Part shown: positions 3,806 through 29,772 of the stretch, piece by piece | Layout of the letters: each line of letters starts with the position of its first letter | Numbering within the stretch: the first letter of the stretch is position 1 | Source of the DNA: Psilocybe cubensis | Lineage: Eukaryota | Assembly (NCBI GenBank): GCA_017499595.2 | Contig: CM039008.1 | Coordinates: forward strand, 2,418,001-2,482,000 | Direction of reading: 5' to 3' | DNA length: 64,000 nucleotides | Position numbers and translations under genes: made by a program | Notes under the pieces: generated by a model | Database searches by the model: none | What the model was told of the DNA's origin: nothing | The model's input: only the letters and a program-made list of their open reading frames with translations

Positions 3806-6187
3806 CTATGTCGAATAATCAAGGAATTCCTGGAGCTTGTGTCCAATCCTCGGAGGGAATTTGAACGCAAAAAGTTTGTCTCCGAACGTTCTCACAATGC
3901 GAGCAAGACCTTCTTTCAACCCTATTGAAGTATTTAGTAAGAACAAGCATCACACACACTGACACGCAAAGGAGATGCTTACCATCCCCCATCGACCCAA
4001 GCACTTCCTGAGATTTATGAATTTCAATAGCAAGTGATTCATGTTGCTGCTTCTCTCTGCGAGAAACTGGAGGTTGTGACAATGGCTTTTGCTGAGTGCT
4101 GATTTTGATCTGGTATTCTTCCACTGCAGATAGGAAGGAGACCATAATTTCCAGAACTTTAGGAATGTCTCTCTGTACAGTTCCGTATCTATCCTCCGTC
4201 AACGAGGAGGATATCAGATAGGAAAGAGCTAAAGATGATCAATCAGCCAAGGGGTTCCATTCGTCGGAGAAACATGAAAGCACCTTCAATGACGACAAGA
4301 TCCAGCTCCCGGAATGGCAACGAAGCCTCAACTTCCTTGCTCAGTCTCTTCTTGGCTGCCCATGCTACTACAGTTGCAACGCTGTCTTTTACGGTTTCAG
4401 GGGCGTATGAACTCCACAACGAAGTCGTTGACGAAACAACGCGGGATTTGATACGGCTGCCTAGTCCGGCGGCAGTTTCGACATTCTTCTTTGCCTCTGC
4501 CGCAATAGGCGACGATATCACTTGTGTCTCCAGGCTTCTGAACAGCTCCGGCATGTGTGTAGCGTCTGCGCCGACATCAACGACTTTAGCAATAGGGCCA
4601 TCTGAGGAGAGCGCGTCCAACGCGGCTTGGCCAGGGGACTCTGGAGTTGACTTAAAGATTCGCTGTCGCAGAAGCGGTGTCGGTGTCGCAATGTTAGGGC
4701 TAACAGTCACTTTCGGTGTTACTGGGGCTGGCACAGGTGCGGGCGGTGCGGGCTGACCTCGGCGAAGGAATAGCTGATAATCACTTTCCAGGAGGGCAAG
4801 GCTCTCGCGCACAAGGAAATTCCAGAGGTTCAGAGACGACTGCTGGTCACCGAAGAGCGCCGTTCTCTGTGTGGATGCACTCGTCGATTGATCTTTTGCC
4901 AGATCCCTCAGCTCTGAGTAGGCAAAGTATTTAAAGATCCTGTCGGAAGAGCTAATACCAGATACAATGGTCGTGTTGGCGTCAGCAGTAACTTGAGAAA
5001 CATGAGCGGGCTGTATGCTTGACACTAAGTTATGTGGCAATGCATAGGAAAGAAGACATACCTCTGAAACGACGTGTTCAAACAAGTCGTCAGCTATTTC
5101 CCAGGTAACAAGGGTTGTAAATGCTAAAATCCATGCTCTAACGAGGAGTGGGATATGAATCAAGGGAAGTAAGATTGACCATTGTCCTTTGAGAAAATGA
5201 GCTGTGAATGGCCGTAGAAGCAGAGATACCAGCGGAATCCTAATCAATATAGGAAGACAGAGTCGCGCGATCGCAAAAAGAAGGGAAGCCGTAGAGATGG
5301 CCATTGTCGAAAAGACTGTAGACACAATGATGGCCATAGCAACTGTGAAAAATTGAACTGTATGCCCAGAATGAGACTGGTGCGGGTATTAATTCCAGTT
5401 AATGAAAAGGCTCATAGATTTACGCACGGAATGGGACCATCTATAAGCGAATCTGTCTATCATCGCTCCCCTCAGAGAAAATGCCAATGCAGTCGAAGCT
5501 TGGGAAAAAAATAAAAATACAAGGCGACCGTTGAGGTAATAAGGATGTTTTCTGTAGATGTCAATTTTAGTCTAAGCAAGTGAAGGGGAAGACCTACTTG
5601 GATTTTACAAATATCGATAGCTTGGGGTCGCCTCGAATATCTGACTCGTAGTAGTAAGCCATGACCGTATGGATGATAAGGGCCGAAAGCGCGGAAAGGA
5701 AGTATACAATCGATGCAACCTTCATGCTCTTTTGTGACGATGACATTTTGATTATGTCTATCGGAGACGCAGCACCAGAGCGTTGTGCTATAGATGTACT
5801 GTTAGTATGTACATTATTTCAGGCTGTAAAATACGCACCTCGTAGAAACACCTTGCGGAGGACAGTTGTAGGCAGGGCCACTGTAAACCAACTCAGAGCA
5901 AGAAACACGATCCACGGGGAAAGCGGAAGGGTAGCAATAACCCATATTTTCGGACTTCCTAGCTGCCACCACGCCCAAAATCCATCAATGAGCCATGTCA
6001 CTGCCGCTGTGAACAGTAAAACAAACTTCAGTCTGTGCTGGAAGAGAGATTTGAGAAGAGGTTCATATGCTTCGGTTGCGGGTGGGACTGAAGGTGTGGA
6101 TCTAGTGGATATCGTAGATGTTATTGCCCTCACGGGAGTCATCGGAGTTGGCGTTCCGATTCGTGCATTGGGCACCGTCTTCGACAT
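3806..6187 (-). CDS. NDC1: Nucleoporin / spindle-pole-body membrane protein Ndc1 (multi-exon)
   Basis: N-terminal hydrophobic TM exons (5819..6187, 4243..5337). C-terminal motifs EDRYGTVQRDIPKVLE and LKEGLARIVRTFGDKL..KFPPR resemble fungal Ndc1. Stop TAG at 3806-3808. Confidence 0.8.
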
Positions 6188-22003: not shown

Positions 22004-23814
22004 ATGGAACAAATCCAAGGAAACCAAACATATAACCCAACACTAAGCGTTCATGATCAGCGAATGGCCAGCTATGTAGCAGGTACGTCTGTATGATGTT
22101 AGTAAGAATATTTGTTTCATTGGGTCACTGATTTTTTTCAATTGCAAGTGGGTTTAGCTATTTGTGCATTGTACGACCACTGTAAGTCCTGATCCGAGTA
22201 ATTCTTTTTTACCCTGCTGACTCTGTCCATGACACACCCGTACAGTAATCACTCTTGATGGAGAGGTAGGTCTTCTTTTTATTTCTTATACGACTACTAA
22301 ACTCTGGAGTTATTGGTTCCCTATTAAAAGATGGAGATAGTATGGGTATGTCTCATCAATGACAAGATTTTACAGTTATCAACACTAACTCTATGCAATT
22401 TTAGCGCCGTCCAAAATGGACAATAGCCCGGGTTTTATTCCTAATAGTATGAGCCTCAAGCCTTCTCCAGATAAATGGCGTACTAAAATTGAATATAGAA
22501 TCGATATCTTTGCGATGCCATTCTCATGTCAGTGCGATTTTCTGACTTCCATTGACTCTAGTGCTTGAGGTAATCCTTTTACGCCATTTGTACAGATACG
22601 GAGCCGTCGGTAGGAGATCAGTTTTGAAGCGTGTTTAGGATTCTTCCAGCCTAATTAACTGGTATTACATAGACCTAACATTCAATGCACGTGTTACAGA
22701 AATTCAAGTAGGTCTCCAGTTTCTGAAATTCCACATCGACAGTGTACTCACTTTACCTTCATTATGCCAGAAGTAAGTGTTTGTAAAACGCCGTTATTAC
22801 ACTAAAAAATCCAACTTACAGAGCGTTGTAGCTGTAAGTGTTGCTTCATCAATGTGAGCATCCATTTTATTGATCCCTTGGGATGGGAACTTCAGGTCGA
22901 AACCCATTTCTTGTTCTGATATGGGGAACCTTGGTTGCATTTTTGTCCATGCAAGGCAAGCTCGTTTTTCATATCTAGAGGTTCATGAGGCGATAGTATT
23001 TTCAGGGATTGTCGTATTCCGAGTTGCTAGCATGTTTCATCTTTCGCGGACAATAATTATCGTTCTCTCTATCGCTTTCGGTATCGAGATTCTATCGACC
23101 ACCTTAATTCAGGCATTATCAACCCCTGCTGGGTATAGCGGTCCCGGAACAGGTACGTAACTGTGGCGAGGTGGGAGGGATGTAGTTGCTCACTCACATA
23201 AAACTATTAGGACCTTTACCGTCGCCTATATGCTCGCCTCCATTCTCTGCTTTCTGGGCCAACATGTTATGGATAATAATTGTCGTCTATGAGACGATGG
23301 TTCTCTCACTTTCGGTATTCAGAGCAGTTCAAACACACCGCAAAGTTTTCGCTTTCAAAGCCTACGTGATATCCAATAGACCCTCTGTAATGTACATCTT
23401 ACTCCGGGATAGTATCTTTTTCCAACTGGCGTGAGTCATTTTCAATTTATCTCTGCCTTGCATTACCAAAATCCTTGTAACAGAGCTCTTGCAGTCTGTA
23501 CAGCAAATTTTGTGGCATCCGTTAACTTTTCAGTCAGTCTTAGTATGGAGTACTCACATATTTGATTGATTAACTTATGTCCATAGTTTCTCTTAGTTCA
23601 GAACAGCCTTACGGTGGCCACCTTCGCTACACACATCGCTGGTTCACGACTTATGCTCAATTTAAGGGAAGCATATTACAAGCCTTTTGACGATGAATAT
23701 ACTCAAGCAAACATAAAACCAATTGGCTTTGTCCGTGATGTTCCGCCACAAGTTGCCCACATTCTTGACTCCTACGACATCTCACCCCTTTCCCCTACTA
23801 CAACACCGGTTTAA
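22004..23814 (+). CDS. DUF6533-type multi-pass membrane protein (GPCR-like topology), paralogue 1
   Basis: Spliced reading LYDH-LITLDGE-MEIVW-RRPKWTIARVLFLI-NRY...IVVFRVASMF...YILLRDS...GSRLMLNLRE; many very small exons. Confidence 0.82.
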
Positions 23815-24051
23815 TATCAGATTGTTAATAAACAAGGTTTTTGGTGTCCTTTCAATGCTACATGAATTTGAATTTTAGTGAGAAACTGCTTTCCAGTACG
23901 GATTTTGACTGTTAATCATGCTGTATAATCATGCTGTATATATAACGAGCCATCTGGGAAAATTCCAGAATGCCAAGTATCAATCATACGGATCGAACAT
24001 TGAGCGATTGTCATATCACGTCACTAAACTTTGTTGATCCCCTCACTCCAT

Positions 24052-24151
24052 GGGCACATGGTGTAGTTGGTTATCACGCTCGCTTAGCACTGGAAGCCTG
24101 AATGGCTCTGTCACATGCGAGAGGTGTTGGGTTCAATTCCCAATGCGTCCA
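24052..24151 (+). tRNA. tRNA-Ala(AGC) with a 26-nt intron (24090-24115)
   Basis: Acceptor stem GGGCACA/TGCGTCC with the G3:U70 Ala identity pair and one A5-C68 mismatch; anticodon stem CTCGC/GCGAG with AGC at 24086-24088; T arm TTGGG-TTCAATT-CCCAA; oligo-T Pol III terminator directly downstream. Confidence 0.93.
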
Positions 24152-24230
24152 TTTTTTGCTGAATTGGTAAATGGTTATCATGGGCGCTAAGCGTATGGAG
24201 GCAGCTGATCAAGTCCGGAAACAGTTGCAC

Positions 24231-25866
24231 AGGACCCCTGACAATAGGCCCAGAGGACGTTCCGTCGGACGGACAAAAATTTTGAAAATCGACCCCTTCG
24301 GACGTTCCGAAACCGGACAGAAATCACAGATTTTGAGCAAAATGTCGTTCCAAAAATCCGGACAGAAAAGTTGCAGGACCGCCGAGGTTCTTCCTAAAAC
24401 CGGACAAAATATCAGATAAAACAAATGACAAAACTTGTCAACCGAACGATAGTGTAGAGGTAAGCAGTGTGGTTAGTTTCTCCTCTTCGATTCAGTAATA
24501 TGATGGTACTTCAAGTCTTGTTGAAACTTTTTTATTTTTCTCTTAATAACAACTTGAGTTGAGGGCCGTTGCTTCGCACGGCGATACGAGTCCTTGATGC
24601 CCTTTTGCGCTGTACATTTTAAGATTATATATTTTATGACTTTACATAATAAGTATGGTTAAGTTGGCGATACGATGATTCAACTGTCGAATCTAGGATG
24701 CTTCAAAGTGCTCCAATCCCATCTTTCGGGATCCCAGGAAGGAGGCTGGGTGTTAACATCAGGATGACAACGTTGAATATACTGCTTCATCAAATTTGGA
24801 ATATCTATATTTACCATATAATTTGAATTCGTGGTGTATGAAACTAGGTTGGGTAGACTCACTGTCAACTTTGCTACCTCGTAGTCTTGTAGACGGTGAC
24901 TCAGAGGGCTCTCGCATTGCCGACGACGTCGATGAGGTTGTCGCTTGAGCTGAGATACTGCTCGGGAGTAGGGGTCCTGGTTCTGTGATTGACGGGGACG
25001 GTTTTCCTCGACTATTGTAAGCAATATTCTTTCATCTGGGGATTGGGATTTTTGAACGGATCTACATACGGTCTGTTAGTGTGAACAAGGTGTAGTTAAC
25101 CCAGGATTCAGATTGGCAAAGGTAAAGTAGACTATCAGTTGGAGCTGTTTCGATGTAGTGACTAATGATCACGCCGTACTTTAGTCATTGCTTTGAGTGA
25201 GAAAACAAACGGAAAGCACTCACGAAACCAGCCGGTTGCAACTACTACCAATGTCTGTGCCCTTTCAAAAGCATCTTTTCAAGTCTTTGAGCACAGTCAT
25301 GGCCTCTACTTCACTGCAAGACCCACCAAAACTGCCTTGCTCAATGTATCTGAATTTGCACACCTGCCTTCCTGTAAGGTACTCACCCTCCTCTATCATA
25401 AACCCTTGTCTGTCACTGCAGCAGGTTTTGAAGTTCATGCGCAAGATATTTCGCTTTACAAGACATTGGTTGAGGGAGTAGGGAGCATCAAAAAAGCGAT
25501 GAAAATGTTTGCAAAGCGAAACCTAGATAGTAGTACATAGCTTTTTTTGCATCGCATACTCGTTTTATGGTTTTGTATTGTACTAGGCAGGTTTTTTTTA
25601 TTACAGTGATTCTTAACATTGTTCTGAAGCATCCCATTTGCAACTGAACTCAGCTGAACGCGCGCAGCGGCGAAAAAATCAATTTTTAGGCCTGTCCGGA
25701 CACAAATTGGGCCTCCCGAGGGTTGTTCCCGATTTCCGGACAAATTTTTGAAAAAATTGGTAGGTCGTTCTATATCCGGACAGAAATTTTGAAAATCGCG
25801 ACGGACAAAAAACCCAGAAATCGACCTTTTTCGGGAACGTCCTCTGGGCCTATTGTCAGGGGTCCT
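24231..25866. mobile_element. Non-autonomous TIR DNA transposon (1636 bp) with 33-bp perfect TIRs and 8-bp TSD AGTTGCAC
   Basis: AGGACCCCTGACAATAGGCCCAGAGGACGTTCC at 24231-24263 and its reverse complement at 25834-25866; AGTTGCAC at 24223-24230 and 25867-25874; subterminal CGGACA(G/A)AA repeats. Confidence 0.93.
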
Positions 25867-26109
25867 AGTTGCACCCGCATTGGGAACCGCATCAATTCTC
25901 AAATTTTTAAATTTAAGATTAGCACCAATTAGCCAGAGTCGATCAGGAAACCGAACTTCTGGTTGATAAACATTATCATGTAGATGGCTTTGAAGTTTGA
26001 ATCGACGATGTCGATGAACGATGAAGCTTGCAGCTTGAAGTCTAACCAATCACATGCCGATCGTACGGCATACACTCGGCTAGTTTTTGATGGCAGTGAT
26101 GTGTTGGAC

Positions 26110-27338
26110 TGCATCGCCAAAACCGCCAAAACCTTGCCAGATAATATATTGTTAGTAAAGGCAGCTAAGGACACTAAGGCCGCTAAGATAATAAATAGCC
26201 TTACTTGTAAGCACTTACAAGTAAGGACATGTTATGATTAGTATTTTTGGTAATCCTTAGTAGATTCGGACATCCTTAGTTGCCCTTAGTAGACCTTGGA
26301 AGGCAGGGCAAAAATTATTTAACATTTTGAAGAAGCTTCCTCTTTGACTGGTTTCCTGATTTGCTCTTCGATTTCTTCGGACATTGATTAATAAAATAGC
26401 AATAAAAATATATATTTTGAATCAACGGTAGCATTACAAATATAATTTATTTACAACAACCGAATATTGGTCACACTGACTGAGAGGTGACATTATGAAA
26501 TCACGTACAAACATACACCAAACACGGGTTCAGGATGGCCGAGGTCGTTGTCAGAGTAAGTGAAAGCCAGTGAGATCTTCCGACTCGTGTTGGGGTGAGG
26601 TACTCTAAAACCTAGAACTGACAATGGACTCGTCACCAATAACATCAGTGATTCTTGAAGCTTGAAGGTTTGTTTGAAAAGAAACTTACTATTTCTGTGC
26701 CAGCATTAGAAAGTCAAAGGCAAGAGCAGGTGGGAGTAAGTGGAAAGGAGTTGATTGAGTGCTTGAAATTCGTGCGAGCGTCTTTAAAGTCAACGTCCCC
26801 AATTTCAGGGACCCCAATGTCTGACTTTGGTATCATGTGATCACTGACAGACTTCATCTTGAGGAGCGACCAATTTTGTATTTTTAATGTGTGACGATGC
26901 TGTAAAAAGTTGCTTCGACAATGCAAGCTTATTCTAAATATTTGATGGTCAATGAATTGTCCACAAATTTCTTGATCACTCTACAACACTTGTCTAAATG
27001 TTTGTTCGCTTTTTAATTTTCAAGTAAGGCTTGATAAACAAGAAAATTTTACACTAATGCTTTGGGTCTGAATGCATGACAAGACATATAATAGTCATAG
27101 AAAAGAAAGCAAAGCATATAATTCTTTTACACCATATGTATGATCAATTTTTTACCATTAATTCAAATGAGAATTAATATTAAAATGGCACTCAAAGGTC
27201 AACAAATGATTGGCTGACCTTTCAAAGGCAATCCAAGGTCAATGAATATTTTGATTGGCTAGGTTAGGTCACCTAATTCCGGACTTACCTTAAAAGGACA
27301 CAAAGGCAATGCTTGTTTTTGGCGGTTTTCGCAATGTG
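26110..27338. mobile_element. Older degenerate TIR element
   Basis: TGCATCGCCAAAACCGCCAAAA (26110-26131) versus TTTTGGCGGTTTTCGCAATGTG (27317-27338); 13-bp perfect core; subterminal TAAGG/AAGGTCAA-type repeats; AT-rich interior. Confidence 0.55.
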
Positions 27339-28042: not shown

Positions 28043-29772
28043 ATGTATGAGGATCAGGCAAATACGTCTTTCTTTTCTGAAAACAGCGTCCACCAACAAA
28101 GGCTAGTGAGTTATGTTGCAGGTGAGTCGCAAGGCTAAGACCTATTACAATTAGGCTGTGATCTGAGCTTTGCATAGTTGGACTGGCTGTGGGCGCGTTG
28201 TATGATCACTGTAAGCATCGTGCATGACCCGTTAATCACCCACTCACTGGCGTTTCTTGTTGTGTGTATAGGTATCACTCTTAACGAAGAGGTAAAATGA
28301 TTCAACCTGACCTTGCTGAGATACGTTTCATATCAATGGTCATACACCCTTTCTAGATACAAATTATATGGGTAGAAATTACCGCCTTTATTCGGACTAA
28401 GACGCTGACTTCTGTCTGACCAGCGTCGTCCAAAATGGAGGATCGTCCAAGGACTATTTCTTGTTGTAAGTTCTTCAGCGCTCTCATACGTCTGACAATT
28501 AAAAATGCTGTTCAGAACCGATATCTGTGTGATGCACTGCTTATGTAAGGGTCCTCACATTTCTCGCATCACTAGTGGGTTGCATTAACAACTTTGCCGA
28601 TATCCTGTGTCATTGATAGATACGGCGCCATAGGTAAGCAATGATCATCATTTTATGCTCAGGTTACAGCCTGAATATATTTTTCTGAGCTCAGCCCTGA
28701 CTTCAAATGCGGAGGCCACGGAAACTAAAGTATGTTTTCGAAGTCTGAACTTGGTGTTGTGTCCAACTAAACTCCTGATCAACAGAAGTGTGTGTTTTAC
28801 CCCTAAATTAACTTCAAATTTCATTAACATGAGGCTATCATAGATGTCTGTCTGGCTAGAGATTTTCTCAATGTCAAAGTATTGATATTTTGGTAATACA
28901 GGCCAATATCCATTTCTTGCATTAGCGTGGACAACTCTGATTGCTTTCTGGTGTATGCAGGGTAAGTAGTTTGCATGAAAACGATTAAGATGCATCTTCC
29001 ACTGATCAGTGGAACCTTTAGGGATAGTTGTTTTTCGGATATCAAGCATGTTCCATCACTCTCGGGCAATAATTTTTGCCCTTTTAATTGCTTTCTTCAC
29101 TGAAGTTATATCGACGACTGTGATACAGGCAGTCTCAACTCCATCGGCATATACACCAGGTGAGCCTGTAACGTCTCTTGTAATGCTACCGTTACTCTAA
29201 GTAATCTACTAGACTCTCCTTTGTTCCCAGTATGCTCACCTCCTCCAACCAGCTCCTGGTCAAATGCCTTCTGGATAGTAGTCATGGTCTACGAGGTATT
29301 CCTTCTTGGGCTGTCAATATTTAAAGCAGCCCAAACCTACTGGGAAGTGATTGCTCTCAAGGAGCATGCATTAACAGAAAACGCTTCCATTATGTATATC
29401 TTACTACGGGATAGTATTCTCTTTCCATTTGCGTAAGCTTTTAGAGTTACCTTTATGTGTTTCAATTGACAGAAGATAATTGCAGAGCTGTAGCCGTCTG
29501 CGCTGCAAACCTTGCTGGAAGCGTGTATAATTCGGTGACCCGTTTCTATTGGCACGCTTTCCGTTGTTACTAACAATTATTATTAGTTCTTTCTTGCTCA
29601 AGCAAGTGTATCCCTAGCCGGGTTTGCTACCCACATTGTCGGGTCGCGTCTCATTCTTAATTTGCGTGAGGCATATTATCGACCGTTTGACGATGAATAC
29701 AGCCAGTCAAACACACTTCCCATCGGATTTACTCGTGGGATACAACAGACAAGTAGTATATCACACTCATAG
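28043..29772 (+). CDS. DUF6533-type multi-pass membrane protein, paralogue 2
   Basis: Same exon architecture as 22004..23814: LYDH-CITLNEE-IQIIW-RRPKWRIVQGLFLV-NRY...IVVFRISSMF...YILLRDS...GSRLILNLRE; stop TAG 29770-29772. Confidence 0.82.

What the first reader, a model, noticed from the sequence alone, without database searches (positions are those of the whole stretch)
22673..22955. Two consecutive 2-nt microexons needed in DUF6533 paralogue 1
Seen: a 35-nt exon ends in phase 0 (22707), then cag|AA|gtaagt (22771-22772) and tag|CT|gtaagt (22832-22833). The three introns are normal sized (63, 59 and 62 nt). Only inclusion of both microexons (4 nt) restores the frame, giving ...EIQ-N-C-RNPFLVLIW. 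Skipping both hits a TGA within 8 codons, and skipping one shifts the frame. Inference: tandem 2-nt exons are near the minimum exon size, are usually missed by gene predictors, and could act as a splicing-dependent on/off switch.
Basis: partly seen in the sequence, partly recalled or inferred. Interest (0 to 1): 0.8.

Follow-up and report, generated by a model that had tools for sequence, protein, structure and literature searches.

The report
Two conserved 2-base exons in tandem
A mushroom-type fungal gene for a receptor-like membrane protein really does seem to need two back-to-back exons of only two bases each, and the same odd structure is kept in dozens of related genes, but exons this small are already known in mushroom-forming fungi.

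Summary
Including both microexons gives an intact 15-exon, 324-aa ORF.

The structure is not chance.
- The paralogue 6 kb downstream has the same exon lengths, including two 2-nt exons (AA, AT).
- The composite motif occurs only at these two places in the window.
- 47 of 76 related fungal loci from metagenomes carry it (35 distinct exon-11 peptides). Shuffled and reverse-complement controls gave 0.
- Relatives with the 4 nt fused to exon 8 (L031) or present as one 4-nt exon (L069) show these bases are coding.
- An intronless, cDNA-like contig (L004) and a transcript-derived protein (P0029) carry exactly the two predicted codons, X-Cys.

No RNA data cover this particular gene. Nothing supports an on/off switch.

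2-nt exons are already reported in Coprinopsis (PMC12230235). This is therefore a well-supported new member of a known kind, notable for the tandem pair and its conservation across the family.

The parts
22004..23814 (+). Paralogue 1 (P1): 15-exon gene for a 324-aa DUF6533-type, 7-helix membrane protein. Exon lengths are 79, 33, 20, 15, 42, 29, 14, 35, 2, 2, 60, 147, 220, 49, 228.
   Evidence: One search gives an intact ORF with all introns 50-68 nt. One search shows a gapless alignment to cDNA-derived relatives from YDH to MQG.
22673..22707 (+). Exon 8 (35 nt, ends in phase 0), encoding (D)LTFNARVTEIQ.
   Evidence: A 35-nt exon sits at the same place in P2 and was flagged at 31 of 51 positions in related loci.
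22708..22770 (+). Intron 8 (63 nt, gtaggt...cag).
   Evidence: It holds the only strain difference in 22673-22955 (22737 C>G).
22771..22772 (+). Microexon 1, AA: the first two bases of the Asn codon.
   Evidence: P2 has AA at 28786-28787. Relatives have AA, AG, GA, GG or CA.
22773..22831 (+). Intron 9 (59 nt, gtaagt...tag).
   Evidence: Retaining it gives a stop at once.
22832..22833 (+). Microexon 2, CT: the third base of the Asn codon plus the first base of the conserved Cys codon.
   Evidence: P2 has AT at 28844-28845. Relatives have AT, CT or TT.
22834..22895 (+). Intron 10 (62 nt, gtaagt...cag). A TATTGAT branch-like motif is conserved with P2.
22896..22955 (+). Exon 11 (60 nt). It starts with GT, which completes the Cys codon, then encodes RNPFLVLIWGTLVAFLSMQ. 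It is followed by a GC-AG intron (gcaagc).
   Evidence: A 60-nt exon sits at the same place in P2, L031 and L069.
28043..29772 (+). Paralogue 2 (P2): 307 aa, with the same 15-exon plan (79, 33, 20, 15, 42, 29, 14, 35, 2, 2, 60, 138, 220, 49, 186).
   Evidence: Identity to P1 is 176 of 305 aligned residues.
28786..28787 (+). P2 microexon 1, AA (cag|AA|gtgtgt).
   Evidence: and the alignment.
28844..28845 (+). P2 microexon 2, AT (tag|AT|gtctgt), giving ...TETK-K-C-QYPFLALAW.
   Evidence: and the alignment.

Best explanation
P1 is a 15-exon gene of a fungal (agaric) DUF6533 family of GPCR-like seven-helix membrane proteins. Its coding sequence is interrupted, within 6 coding bases, by three ordinary short introns. 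These leave two exons of 2 nt each, AA and CT. Both must be kept. Together with the first two bases of the next exon they make the codons Asn-Cys. The Cys is a family-conserved residue at the start of helix 3.

The arrangement is inherited, not accidental. It is shared with the neighbouring paralogue and with many related genes. Some relatives have lost one or two of the three introns, which fuses the same 4 bases to a neighbouring exon.

Inferred mechanism: splice sites are recognised across each ~60-nt intron (intron definition, usual for fungi with short introns), so exon length does not matter. The 3' site of one intron lies only 2 nt from the 5' site of the next. The three introns are therefore probably removed one after another rather than at once. 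Inclusion is constitutive.

Shown: the sequence, the conservation, and the spliced products of relatives. Inferred: splicing of P1 itself, the order of intron removal, and the role of the Cys.
For: (1) The sequence and an intact 324-aa ORF appear only with this exon plan among the conserved alternatives.

(2) P2 shares only 176 of 305 aligned residues with P1. Yet it has identical lengths for the first 11 exons, including 35, 2, 2, 60. In the DNA alignment, islands of identity sit on cag-AA-gt and tag-NT-gt inside otherwise diverged introns.

(3) The composite motif is found only at these two sites in the window; the simulated mean is 0.01.

(4) The same architecture scored >=13 at 50 of 77 exon-12-motif positions that had enough upstream sequence (the two window genes included). 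The controls gave 0 of 231 shuffled and 0 of 77 reverse-complement positions. It is present at 51 positions in 47 of 76 metagenome loci, with 35 distinct exon-11 peptides.

(5) Natural variants exist. L031 has one 39-nt exon (35+AGCT). L069 has a 35-nt exon plus a single 4-nt exon, GCCT. L027 has a 2-nt exon, with the second pair fused to exon 11.

(6) Spliced products of relatives agree. L004 is an intronless full-length ORF reading ...ACCAAG-AG-CT-GTAATT (T-K-S-C-N). In L059, 1 of 1102 GT/GC-AG paths (136 of them in frame and open) reproduces the 14-aa stretch of P0029, and that one is the tandem 2-nt path. P0029 is a 297-aa protein on a 1244-nt contig, so the contig is spliced.

(7) The P1 model aligns without gaps to cDNA-derived relatives from YDH to MQG, with the Cys in the conserved column.

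(8) Two other strains (DNA runs X2, X3) keep both microexons and all six splice sites. The one difference in 22673-22955 lies inside intron 8.

(9) 2-nt exons supported by long reads are reported in another agaric (PMC12230235).
Against: No transcript of P1 or P2 themselves was seen, so splicing of this gene is inferred from relatives.

Other in-frame paths exist on paper (619). One is a single-intron path from a donor 4 nt downstream. In P2 that path would even keep the Cys.

My family scan required T as the second base of microexon 2 and G[TC] at the start of exon 11. The Cys in those loci is therefore there by construction. At 20 of 51 positions the exon-8 acceptor was not at 35 nt, so some upstream donors may be wrongly placed.

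Strict branch-point motifs were found in only about half of all introns of P1 and P2, and in neither intron 8 nor intron 9 of P1. That test is uninformative.

P1 may be under relaxed constraint. Against strains X2/X3 it shows 8 non-synonymous and 4 synonymous differences, including ATG>GTG at the start codon I assumed.
Confidence: 0.85

Rival explanations
1. There are no microexons. A single 184-nt intron (22712-22895) is removed from a donor 4 nt downstream (gtctcc), giving ...EIQ-V-G-RNPF...
For: The path is in frame and stop-free. The same trick works in P2 (donor gttttc), because any gtNNgt donor carries a GT at +5/+6. Gene predictors would prefer it.
Against: The donor lacks the purine at +3 and the G at +5. 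A 184-nt intron would be about 3 times longer than all 14 other introns of the gene, which are 50-68 nt. It replaces the family-conserved Cys with Gly in P1. It leaves the conserved cag-AA-gt and tag-NT-gt islands unexplained. In relative L059 the donor gtatgg has no GT at +5/+6, and only the microexon path reproduces the transcript-derived protein.
Confidence: 0.04
2. The structure is inherited and correct in form, but P1 is a decaying or unused copy. In that case the microexons are not currently spliced into a functional mRNA.
For: In two other strains the A of the assumed ATG is G. Differences in the CDS are 8 non-synonymous to 4 synonymous. P1 is the more diverged copy: its exon 13 shared no scoring relatives in the word-based search.
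Against: All 15 exons are open, and all 28 splice sites are canonical GT/GC-AG. No frameshift or stop appears in the window, and none is created by the differences listed for X2/X3. An in-frame Met at codon 21 could serve as the start.
Confidence: 0.08
3. Inclusion of the microexons is regulated, and skipping (frameshift, early stop) serves as an off-switch for the receptor.
For: Skipping one or both microexons gives premature stops, so skipped mRNAs would be non-productive. A regulated microexon has been described in a filamentous fungus (Trichoderma Xlr2, PMC11121469, abstract seen in the listing).
Against: No isoform data exist. All six splice sites in P1 are strong. The pair is conserved as frame-essential coding bases, and it can be fused to neighbouring exons in relatives without loss of the gene. 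That argues the introns, not a switch, are what is inherited.
Confidence: 0.1

Closest known systems
Ultra-short (1-3 nt) internal exons in Coprinopsis cinerea gene models supported by long reads (PMC12230235; passages read)
   Same: Both are in Agaricomycetes. Both have 2-nt internal exons flanked by short canonical introns, and omission breaks the frame. The paper counts 57 exons of 2 nt in 50 genes, so some genes hold more than one.
   Different: The passages I read do not say whether any are adjacent or lie in DUF6533 genes, and the supplements were closed. Here the two exons are consecutive, separated by one 59-nt intron. The pair is shown to be conserved across a gene family. No RNA evidence exists for the window gene itself.
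Single-nucleotide constitutive exon of Arabidopsis APC11 (PMC4674806; abstract and outline read)
   Same: Both are constitutive exons far below the size thought to be needed for exon recognition, were mis-annotated before, and are needed for the frame.
   Different: APC11 is a plant gene with a single microexon that was verified experimentally. Here there are two in tandem, in a fungus, and the evidence is comparative only.
Conserved adjacent microexons ('microexon-tag' clusters) in land plants and Zygnema (PMC11096116; passages read)
   Same: Both show adjacent microexons conserved across species, overlooked by de novo annotation, with relatives in which the same coding bases are fused into larger exons.
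   Different: The plant examples are 5 and 12 bp. Here each exon is 2 nt, in a fungal GPCR-like family.
Recursive splicing at ratchet points (juxtaposed AG|GT) in Drosophila long introns (PMC8605326 and PMC6110457; abstracts in the listing)
   Same: In both, an acceptor is almost directly followed by a donor, so neighbouring splicing reactions must be stepwise.
   Different: Ratchet points leave 0 nt and subdivide very long introns. Here 2 nt are kept each time, and each intron is an ordinary ~60-nt unit.

Membership tests
Constitutive ultra-short microexon (<=3 nt) | Flanked directly by a canonical acceptor (YAG) and donor (GT...) | tested here: met
   cag|AA|gtaagt and tag|CT|gtaagt.
Constitutive ultra-short microexon (<=3 nt) | Needed to keep the reading frame and the homologous protein sequence | tested here: met
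   Skipping gives stops. With both exons the protein aligns without gaps and with the conserved Cys.
Constitutive ultra-short microexon (<=3 nt) | Conserved in position among paralogues and orthologues | tested here: met
   P2. 47 of 76 related loci, with controls at 0. Fused variants L031, L069 and L027.
Constitutive ultra-short microexon (<=3 nt) | Present in the mature mRNA of this gene | not testable with these tools
   No RNA data cover P1 or P2. Only spliced products of relatives were seen (L004; P0029).
DUF6533 (PF20151) seven-helix, GPCR-like fungal membrane proteins | N-terminal DUF6533 domain (YDH..T...E....W..-type motif up to NRY) | tested here: inconclusive
   Pfam was run on relatives only: L004 ORF 3.5e-15, P0029 4.2e-14, P0003 1.1e-09. 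In P1 the domain is split over exons 2-6, so the joined protein was not given to the tool. P1 aligns to these relatives through the domain: 99 of 281 residues identical to the L004 ORF.
DUF6533 (PF20151) seven-helix, GPCR-like fungal membrane proteins | Seven transmembrane helices with a GPCR-like fold | tested here: met
   This was tested on the relative L004 ORF, not on P1. The model had pLDDT 76 and pTM 0.74, with seven long helices plus a short eighth. The first 50 listed Foldseek PDB matches are all GPCR entries, though weak: E 2e-3 to 2e-2, TM 0.41-0.59. PMC13652807 reports the same resemblance.
Recursive splice site / ratchet point | Acceptor and donor directly juxtaposed (AG|GT), leaving no exon bases | tested here: not met
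   2 nt remain at each site and are coding.
Stwintron (spliceosomal twin intron; definition recalled, not from a call) | An internal intron interrupts a splice signal of an outer intron, so a functional site forms only after the first excision | tested here: not met
   All six sites are complete in the unspliced sequence, and no site is created by removing a neighbouring intron (read).

The most novel reading that the evidence does not exclude
The tandem pair of 2-nt exons is an ancient structure kept throughout a large agaric family of GPCR-like receptors (at least 35 distinct genes). It forces an ordered, three-step removal of a ~190-nt interruption. The cell exploits this: failure or regulation of one step (skipping, then frameshift and mRNA decay) tunes receptor output. 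This would be a conserved splicing checkpoint built from the smallest workable exons.
Probability: 0.1. Interest if true: 0.65.

Novelty: new member of a known kind. Interest (0 to 1): 0.45.

Why it matters
**Annotation.** Public gene models for this family are often wrong at exactly this spot. They show read-through insertions of about 19-24 residues, deletions or truncated N-termini. In several of them (for example P0001, P0033, P0034, P0047) the wrong model loses the conserved Cys at the start of helix 3. A simple rule (35 + 2 + 2 + 60 nt) would repair many of them.

**Splicing biology.** The family offers a natural series: 2+2, one 4-nt exon, 2 nt plus a fused exon, and fully fused. This series could be used to ask how a spliceosome handles a donor placed 2 nt after an acceptor, and in what order neighbouring introns are removed.

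**Limits.** It does not open a new kind of mechanism. Exons of 1-3 nt are already documented in mushroom-forming fungi and plants.

Tried and rejected
- **RNA evidence.** The look-up of sequencing runs listed no holder on record as RNA. Two runs guessed to be RNA (X1, X5; contigs) were laid. They cover only 24664-25868, another gene, and not P1 or P2. This blank says nothing either way.
- **Whole genome.** None is held.
- **Word-based protein search** with P1 exon 13, longer proteins: no hit.
- **The window's own proteins** were not flagged in either later protein search, so no existing annotation of P1 or P2 could be compared.
- **Branch-point motifs** as a test that each small intron is autonomous: uninformative, because a strict motif is found in only about half of all introns.
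- **Single-motif count** YAGNNGTNNGT: at chance level, so only the composite pattern carries weight.
- **tRNA / Rfam scan of about 23800-24600** (high depth in the DNA runs over part of it): nothing found.
- **Ideas rejected.** A stwintron or ratchet-point reading was rejected because the sites are complete and 2 nt are kept. Retention of intron 9 as a real 63-nt exon was rejected because it gives a stop at once in P1 and, by reading the sequence, in P2 as well.
- **Galerina models.** P0003 and P0026 carry 19 extra residues beginning RFV and ending S/R before the Cys. This is what read-through of a 54-nt intron between two 2-nt exons would give. It is inferred from protein letters only, with no Galerina DNA at hand, so I treat it as a lead and not as evidence.
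- **Literature.** Searches for tandem, consecutive or adjacent microexons, for 2-nt exons and for DUF6533 found no description of this pair. Supplements of PMC12230235, which may list the Coprinopsis genes with 2-nt exons, could not be seen.

Full report
**Observation.** The window is eukaryotic, intron-rich DNA of about 41-55% GC.
- A 35-nt exon lies at 22673-22707 (acatag|...|gtaggt).
- AA lies at 22771-22772, between tgccag and gtaagt.
- CT lies at 22832-22833, between ttgtag and gtaagt.
- The next exon starts at 22896, after cttcag.
- The three introns are 63, 59 and 62 nt.

Joining the pieces reads ...TEIQ-N-C-RNPFLVLIW. One search tested the alternatives. Skipping both microexons gives TGA at the 8th codon after the 35-nt exon. 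Skipping either one shifts the frame. Retaining intron 9 or intron 10 gives stops.

**Whole gene.** I extended the model to the whole gene. It has 15 exons spanning 22004-23814, encodes 324 aa without a stop, and its introns are 50-68 nt. All are GT-AG except one GC-AG intron after exon 11. The exons are small throughout: 79, 33, 20, 15, 42, 29, 14, 35, 2, 2, 60, 147, 220, 49 and 228 nt.

**The word 'only'.** If any GT/GC...AG pair may be used, 619 in-frame, stop-free paths lead from exon 8 to exon 11. The simplest is one 184-nt intron from a donor 4 nt further on (gtctcc), giving ...EIQVGRNPF. The frame argument alone therefore does not prove the microexons, and the case rests on comparison.

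**The paralogue.** A second copy lies 6 kb downstream at 28043-29772. It shares only 176 of 305 aligned residues with P1. Even so, its first 11 exon lengths are identical, including 35, 2, 2 and 60. Its microexons are cag|AA|gtgtgt (28786-87) and tag|AT|gtctgt (28844-45), giving ...TETK-K-C-QYPFLALAW. In the DNA alignment the introns have diverged, but islands of identity sit on both microexons with their splice signals.

The single pattern YAGNNGTNNGT is at chance level in the window: 13 seen against 12.1 expected. The composite pattern (donor, intron, YAG-NN-GT, intron, YAG-NN-GT, intron, YAG) occurs only twice on both strands, at these two homologous sites. Only 2 of 200 simulated windows had one.

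**The family.** A profile of exon 13 found 25 relatives. Word-based searches named them as DUF6533 proteins of agarics: Galerina, Psilocybe, Gymnopilus, Agrocybe, Laccaria and others. Neither P1 nor P2 was flagged as already present in that collection.

Many public models are disturbed exactly here.
- P0003, P0026, P0010 and P0033 show insertions of about 19-24 residues.
- P0001, P0034 and P0047 show skips.
- P0052 is a broken model.

Models that look intact, and proteins that must come from spliced contigs, all carry a Cys 28 residues after the N of NRY and 17 residues before MQG. The spliced-contig proteins are P0029 (297 aa on 1244 nt) and P0042 (293 aa on 1021 nt). P1 read with both microexons has the same spacing and the same Cys. 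The rival +4 donor would put Gly there.

**Genomic relatives.** One scan of metagenome contigs returned 76 fungal loci. I scanned the region upstream of every exon-12-like motif for the tandem architecture and scored the splice sites.
- 50 of 77 positions with enough upstream sequence scored >=13, the two window genes included.
- Controls gave 0 of 231 with shuffled upstream sequence and 0 of 77 with reverse-complemented upstream sequence.
- In all, 51 positions in 47 of the 76 loci carry it, with 38 distinct gene versions and 35 distinct exon-11 peptides.
- Microexon 1 is AA, AG, GA, GG or CA. Microexon 2 is AT, CT or TT. The median intron is 59 nt.

Three caveats apply. The scan required the T and the G[TC] that make the Cys. 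The motif positions include false ones and truncated copies. At 20 of 51 positions the exon-8 acceptor was not at 35 nt, so some upstream donors may be misplaced.

**Informative exceptions**.
- L031 has one 39-nt exon that equals 35 + AGCT, followed by a single intron and the 60-nt exon.
- L069 has the 35-nt exon, then a single 4-nt exon (tag|GCCT|gtgcgt), then the 60-nt exon.
- L027 has a 2-nt exon, GA, with the second pair fused to exon 11.
- L001/L002 have a shorter exon that ends in the T of the Cys codon, with no microexons.

These are the states expected if single introns were lost from a 2+2 ancestor, or gained towards it. They show that the four bases are coding.

**Spliced products.** L004 is an intronless 1237-nt contig with a full 288-aa ORF of the family. 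Its junction reads ...ACCAAG-AG-CT-GTAATT, that is T-K-S-C-N. Its nearest genomic relatives here, L059 and L061, are about 80% identical in exons and have the 2+2 structure (AG, TT).

In L059 there are 1102 possible GT/GC-AG paths, of which 136 are in frame and open. Exactly one reproduces the 14-residue stretch VMDTIASCNFINVL of the transcript-derived protein P0029, and it is the tandem microexon path. This is transcript-level evidence for the mechanism in relatives, not in P1.

**Strains.** Contigs of two DNA runs of the same organism label cover P1. The first, X2, covers it fully, with 20 differences in 2.2 kb. The second, X3, starts one base after the first base of the gene and stops about 80 nt short of its end. 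Within 22673-22955 there is one difference, inside intron 8, and both microexons and all six splice sites are unchanged. In the coding sequence there are 8 non-synonymous and 4 synonymous differences, one of them ATG>GTG at the start I assumed. P1 may therefore be evolving fast, or its start may lie elsewhere; Met21 is a candidate.

**What the protein is.** Relatives hit Pfam DUF6533. A model of the L004 ORF (pLDDT 76, pTM 0.74) has seven long helices plus a short eighth. The first 50 listed Foldseek matches in the PDB are all GPCR entries, though weak (E 2e-3 to 2e-2, TM 0.41-0.59). A 2026 paper likewise places DUF6533 proteins with the Ustilago GPCR Gpe1 by structure (PMC13652807, passages read).

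In the model the microexon-encoded residues (S82, C83 of the L004 ORF; counted by hand) sit at the loop-to-helix-3 boundary. A second conserved Cys lies in the helix 4-5 loop. A disulfide like the TM3-ECL2 bridge of class A GPCRs (recalled knowledge) is an inference that I could not measure.

**Mechanism.** *Shown:* three complete, ordinary introns separated by 2 nt each; conservation of that layout; spliced relatives that contain the four bases. *Inferred:* recognition across each short intron (intron definition), so exon size is irrelevant; stepwise removal, because an acceptor and the next donor 2 nt apart can hardly be occupied at once; constitutive inclusion. Nothing here speaks for a regulated switch.

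**Comparison and novelty.** Long-read annotation of Coprinopsis cinerea reports 13 exons of 1 nt, 57 of 2 nt (in 50 genes) and 27 of 3 nt, often frame-essential (PMC12230235). Arabidopsis APC11 has a verified 1-nt exon (PMC4674806). Plants have conserved adjacent microexons with fused forms in other lineages (PMC11096116). My searches found no description of this tandem pair or of microexons in DUF6533 genes, but supplements were closed.

**Verdict.** The finding is real and well supported by comparison. It is a new member of a known kind. Its tandem form and family-wide conservation are worth a note for annotators and for splicing studies.

Noticed in passing
window 22956-23005: Intron 11 of P1 is a GC-AG intron (aag|gcaagc...ttttcag). 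The same intron in P2 starts gtaagt.
   Followed up: partly
window 22004: The A of the assumed P1 start codon is G in DNA run X2, and in part of the depth in X3 (ATG>GTG). The next in-frame Met is codon 21.
   Followed up: partly
window 28083-29737: Contigs of DNA runs X2 and X3 run on from 29737 back to 28083 ('goes back 1655'). Further on they also match P2 exon stretches a second time. Those strains seem to hold an extra tandem copy of P2 that the window lacks.
   Followed up: no
window 26109-27337 and 24222-25867: Contigs of the DNA runs join across 1227 nt (26109 to 27337) and 1644 nt (24222 to 25867), while other contigs cover those stretches. These look like insertion/deletion differences between haplotypes or strains.
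   Followed up: no
window 24036-24302: Summed contig depth in the DNA runs is about 10 times the neighbourhood, so this is probably a repeated element. ARAGORN and Rfam found nothing in the scanned range.
   Followed up: partly
window 24664-25868, minus strand: A neighbouring gene is covered by contigs of the runs guessed to be RNA, with two joints that skip 58 and 62 nt (CT..AC, i.e. GT-AG on the minus strand). It is a spliced, expressed gene between the two paralogues.
   Followed up: no
L031 2362-2400; L069 2725-2728; L027 300-301; L001 1269-1298: Relatives differ in exon structure at this point: a fused 39-nt exon, a single 4-nt exon, one 2-nt exon with the second pair fused to exon 11, and no microexon. 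Together they form a natural intron loss or gain series.
   Followed up: yes
L002 about 4710-4964; L039 about 444-698 (also L003, L006): A subgroup (exon 11 QC-RITNLFLDWGG...) has a clear second microexon, cag|AT|gtaagc, but an unclear upstream part (low score 7-9). It also has no intron after MQG.
   Followed up: partly
proteins P0001, P0003, P0010, P0026, P0033, P0034, P0047, P0052: Public gene models of relatives (Psilocybe, Galerina, Agrocybe) are disturbed at exactly the microexon site. P0001 also fuses two tandem paralogues.
   Followed up: partly
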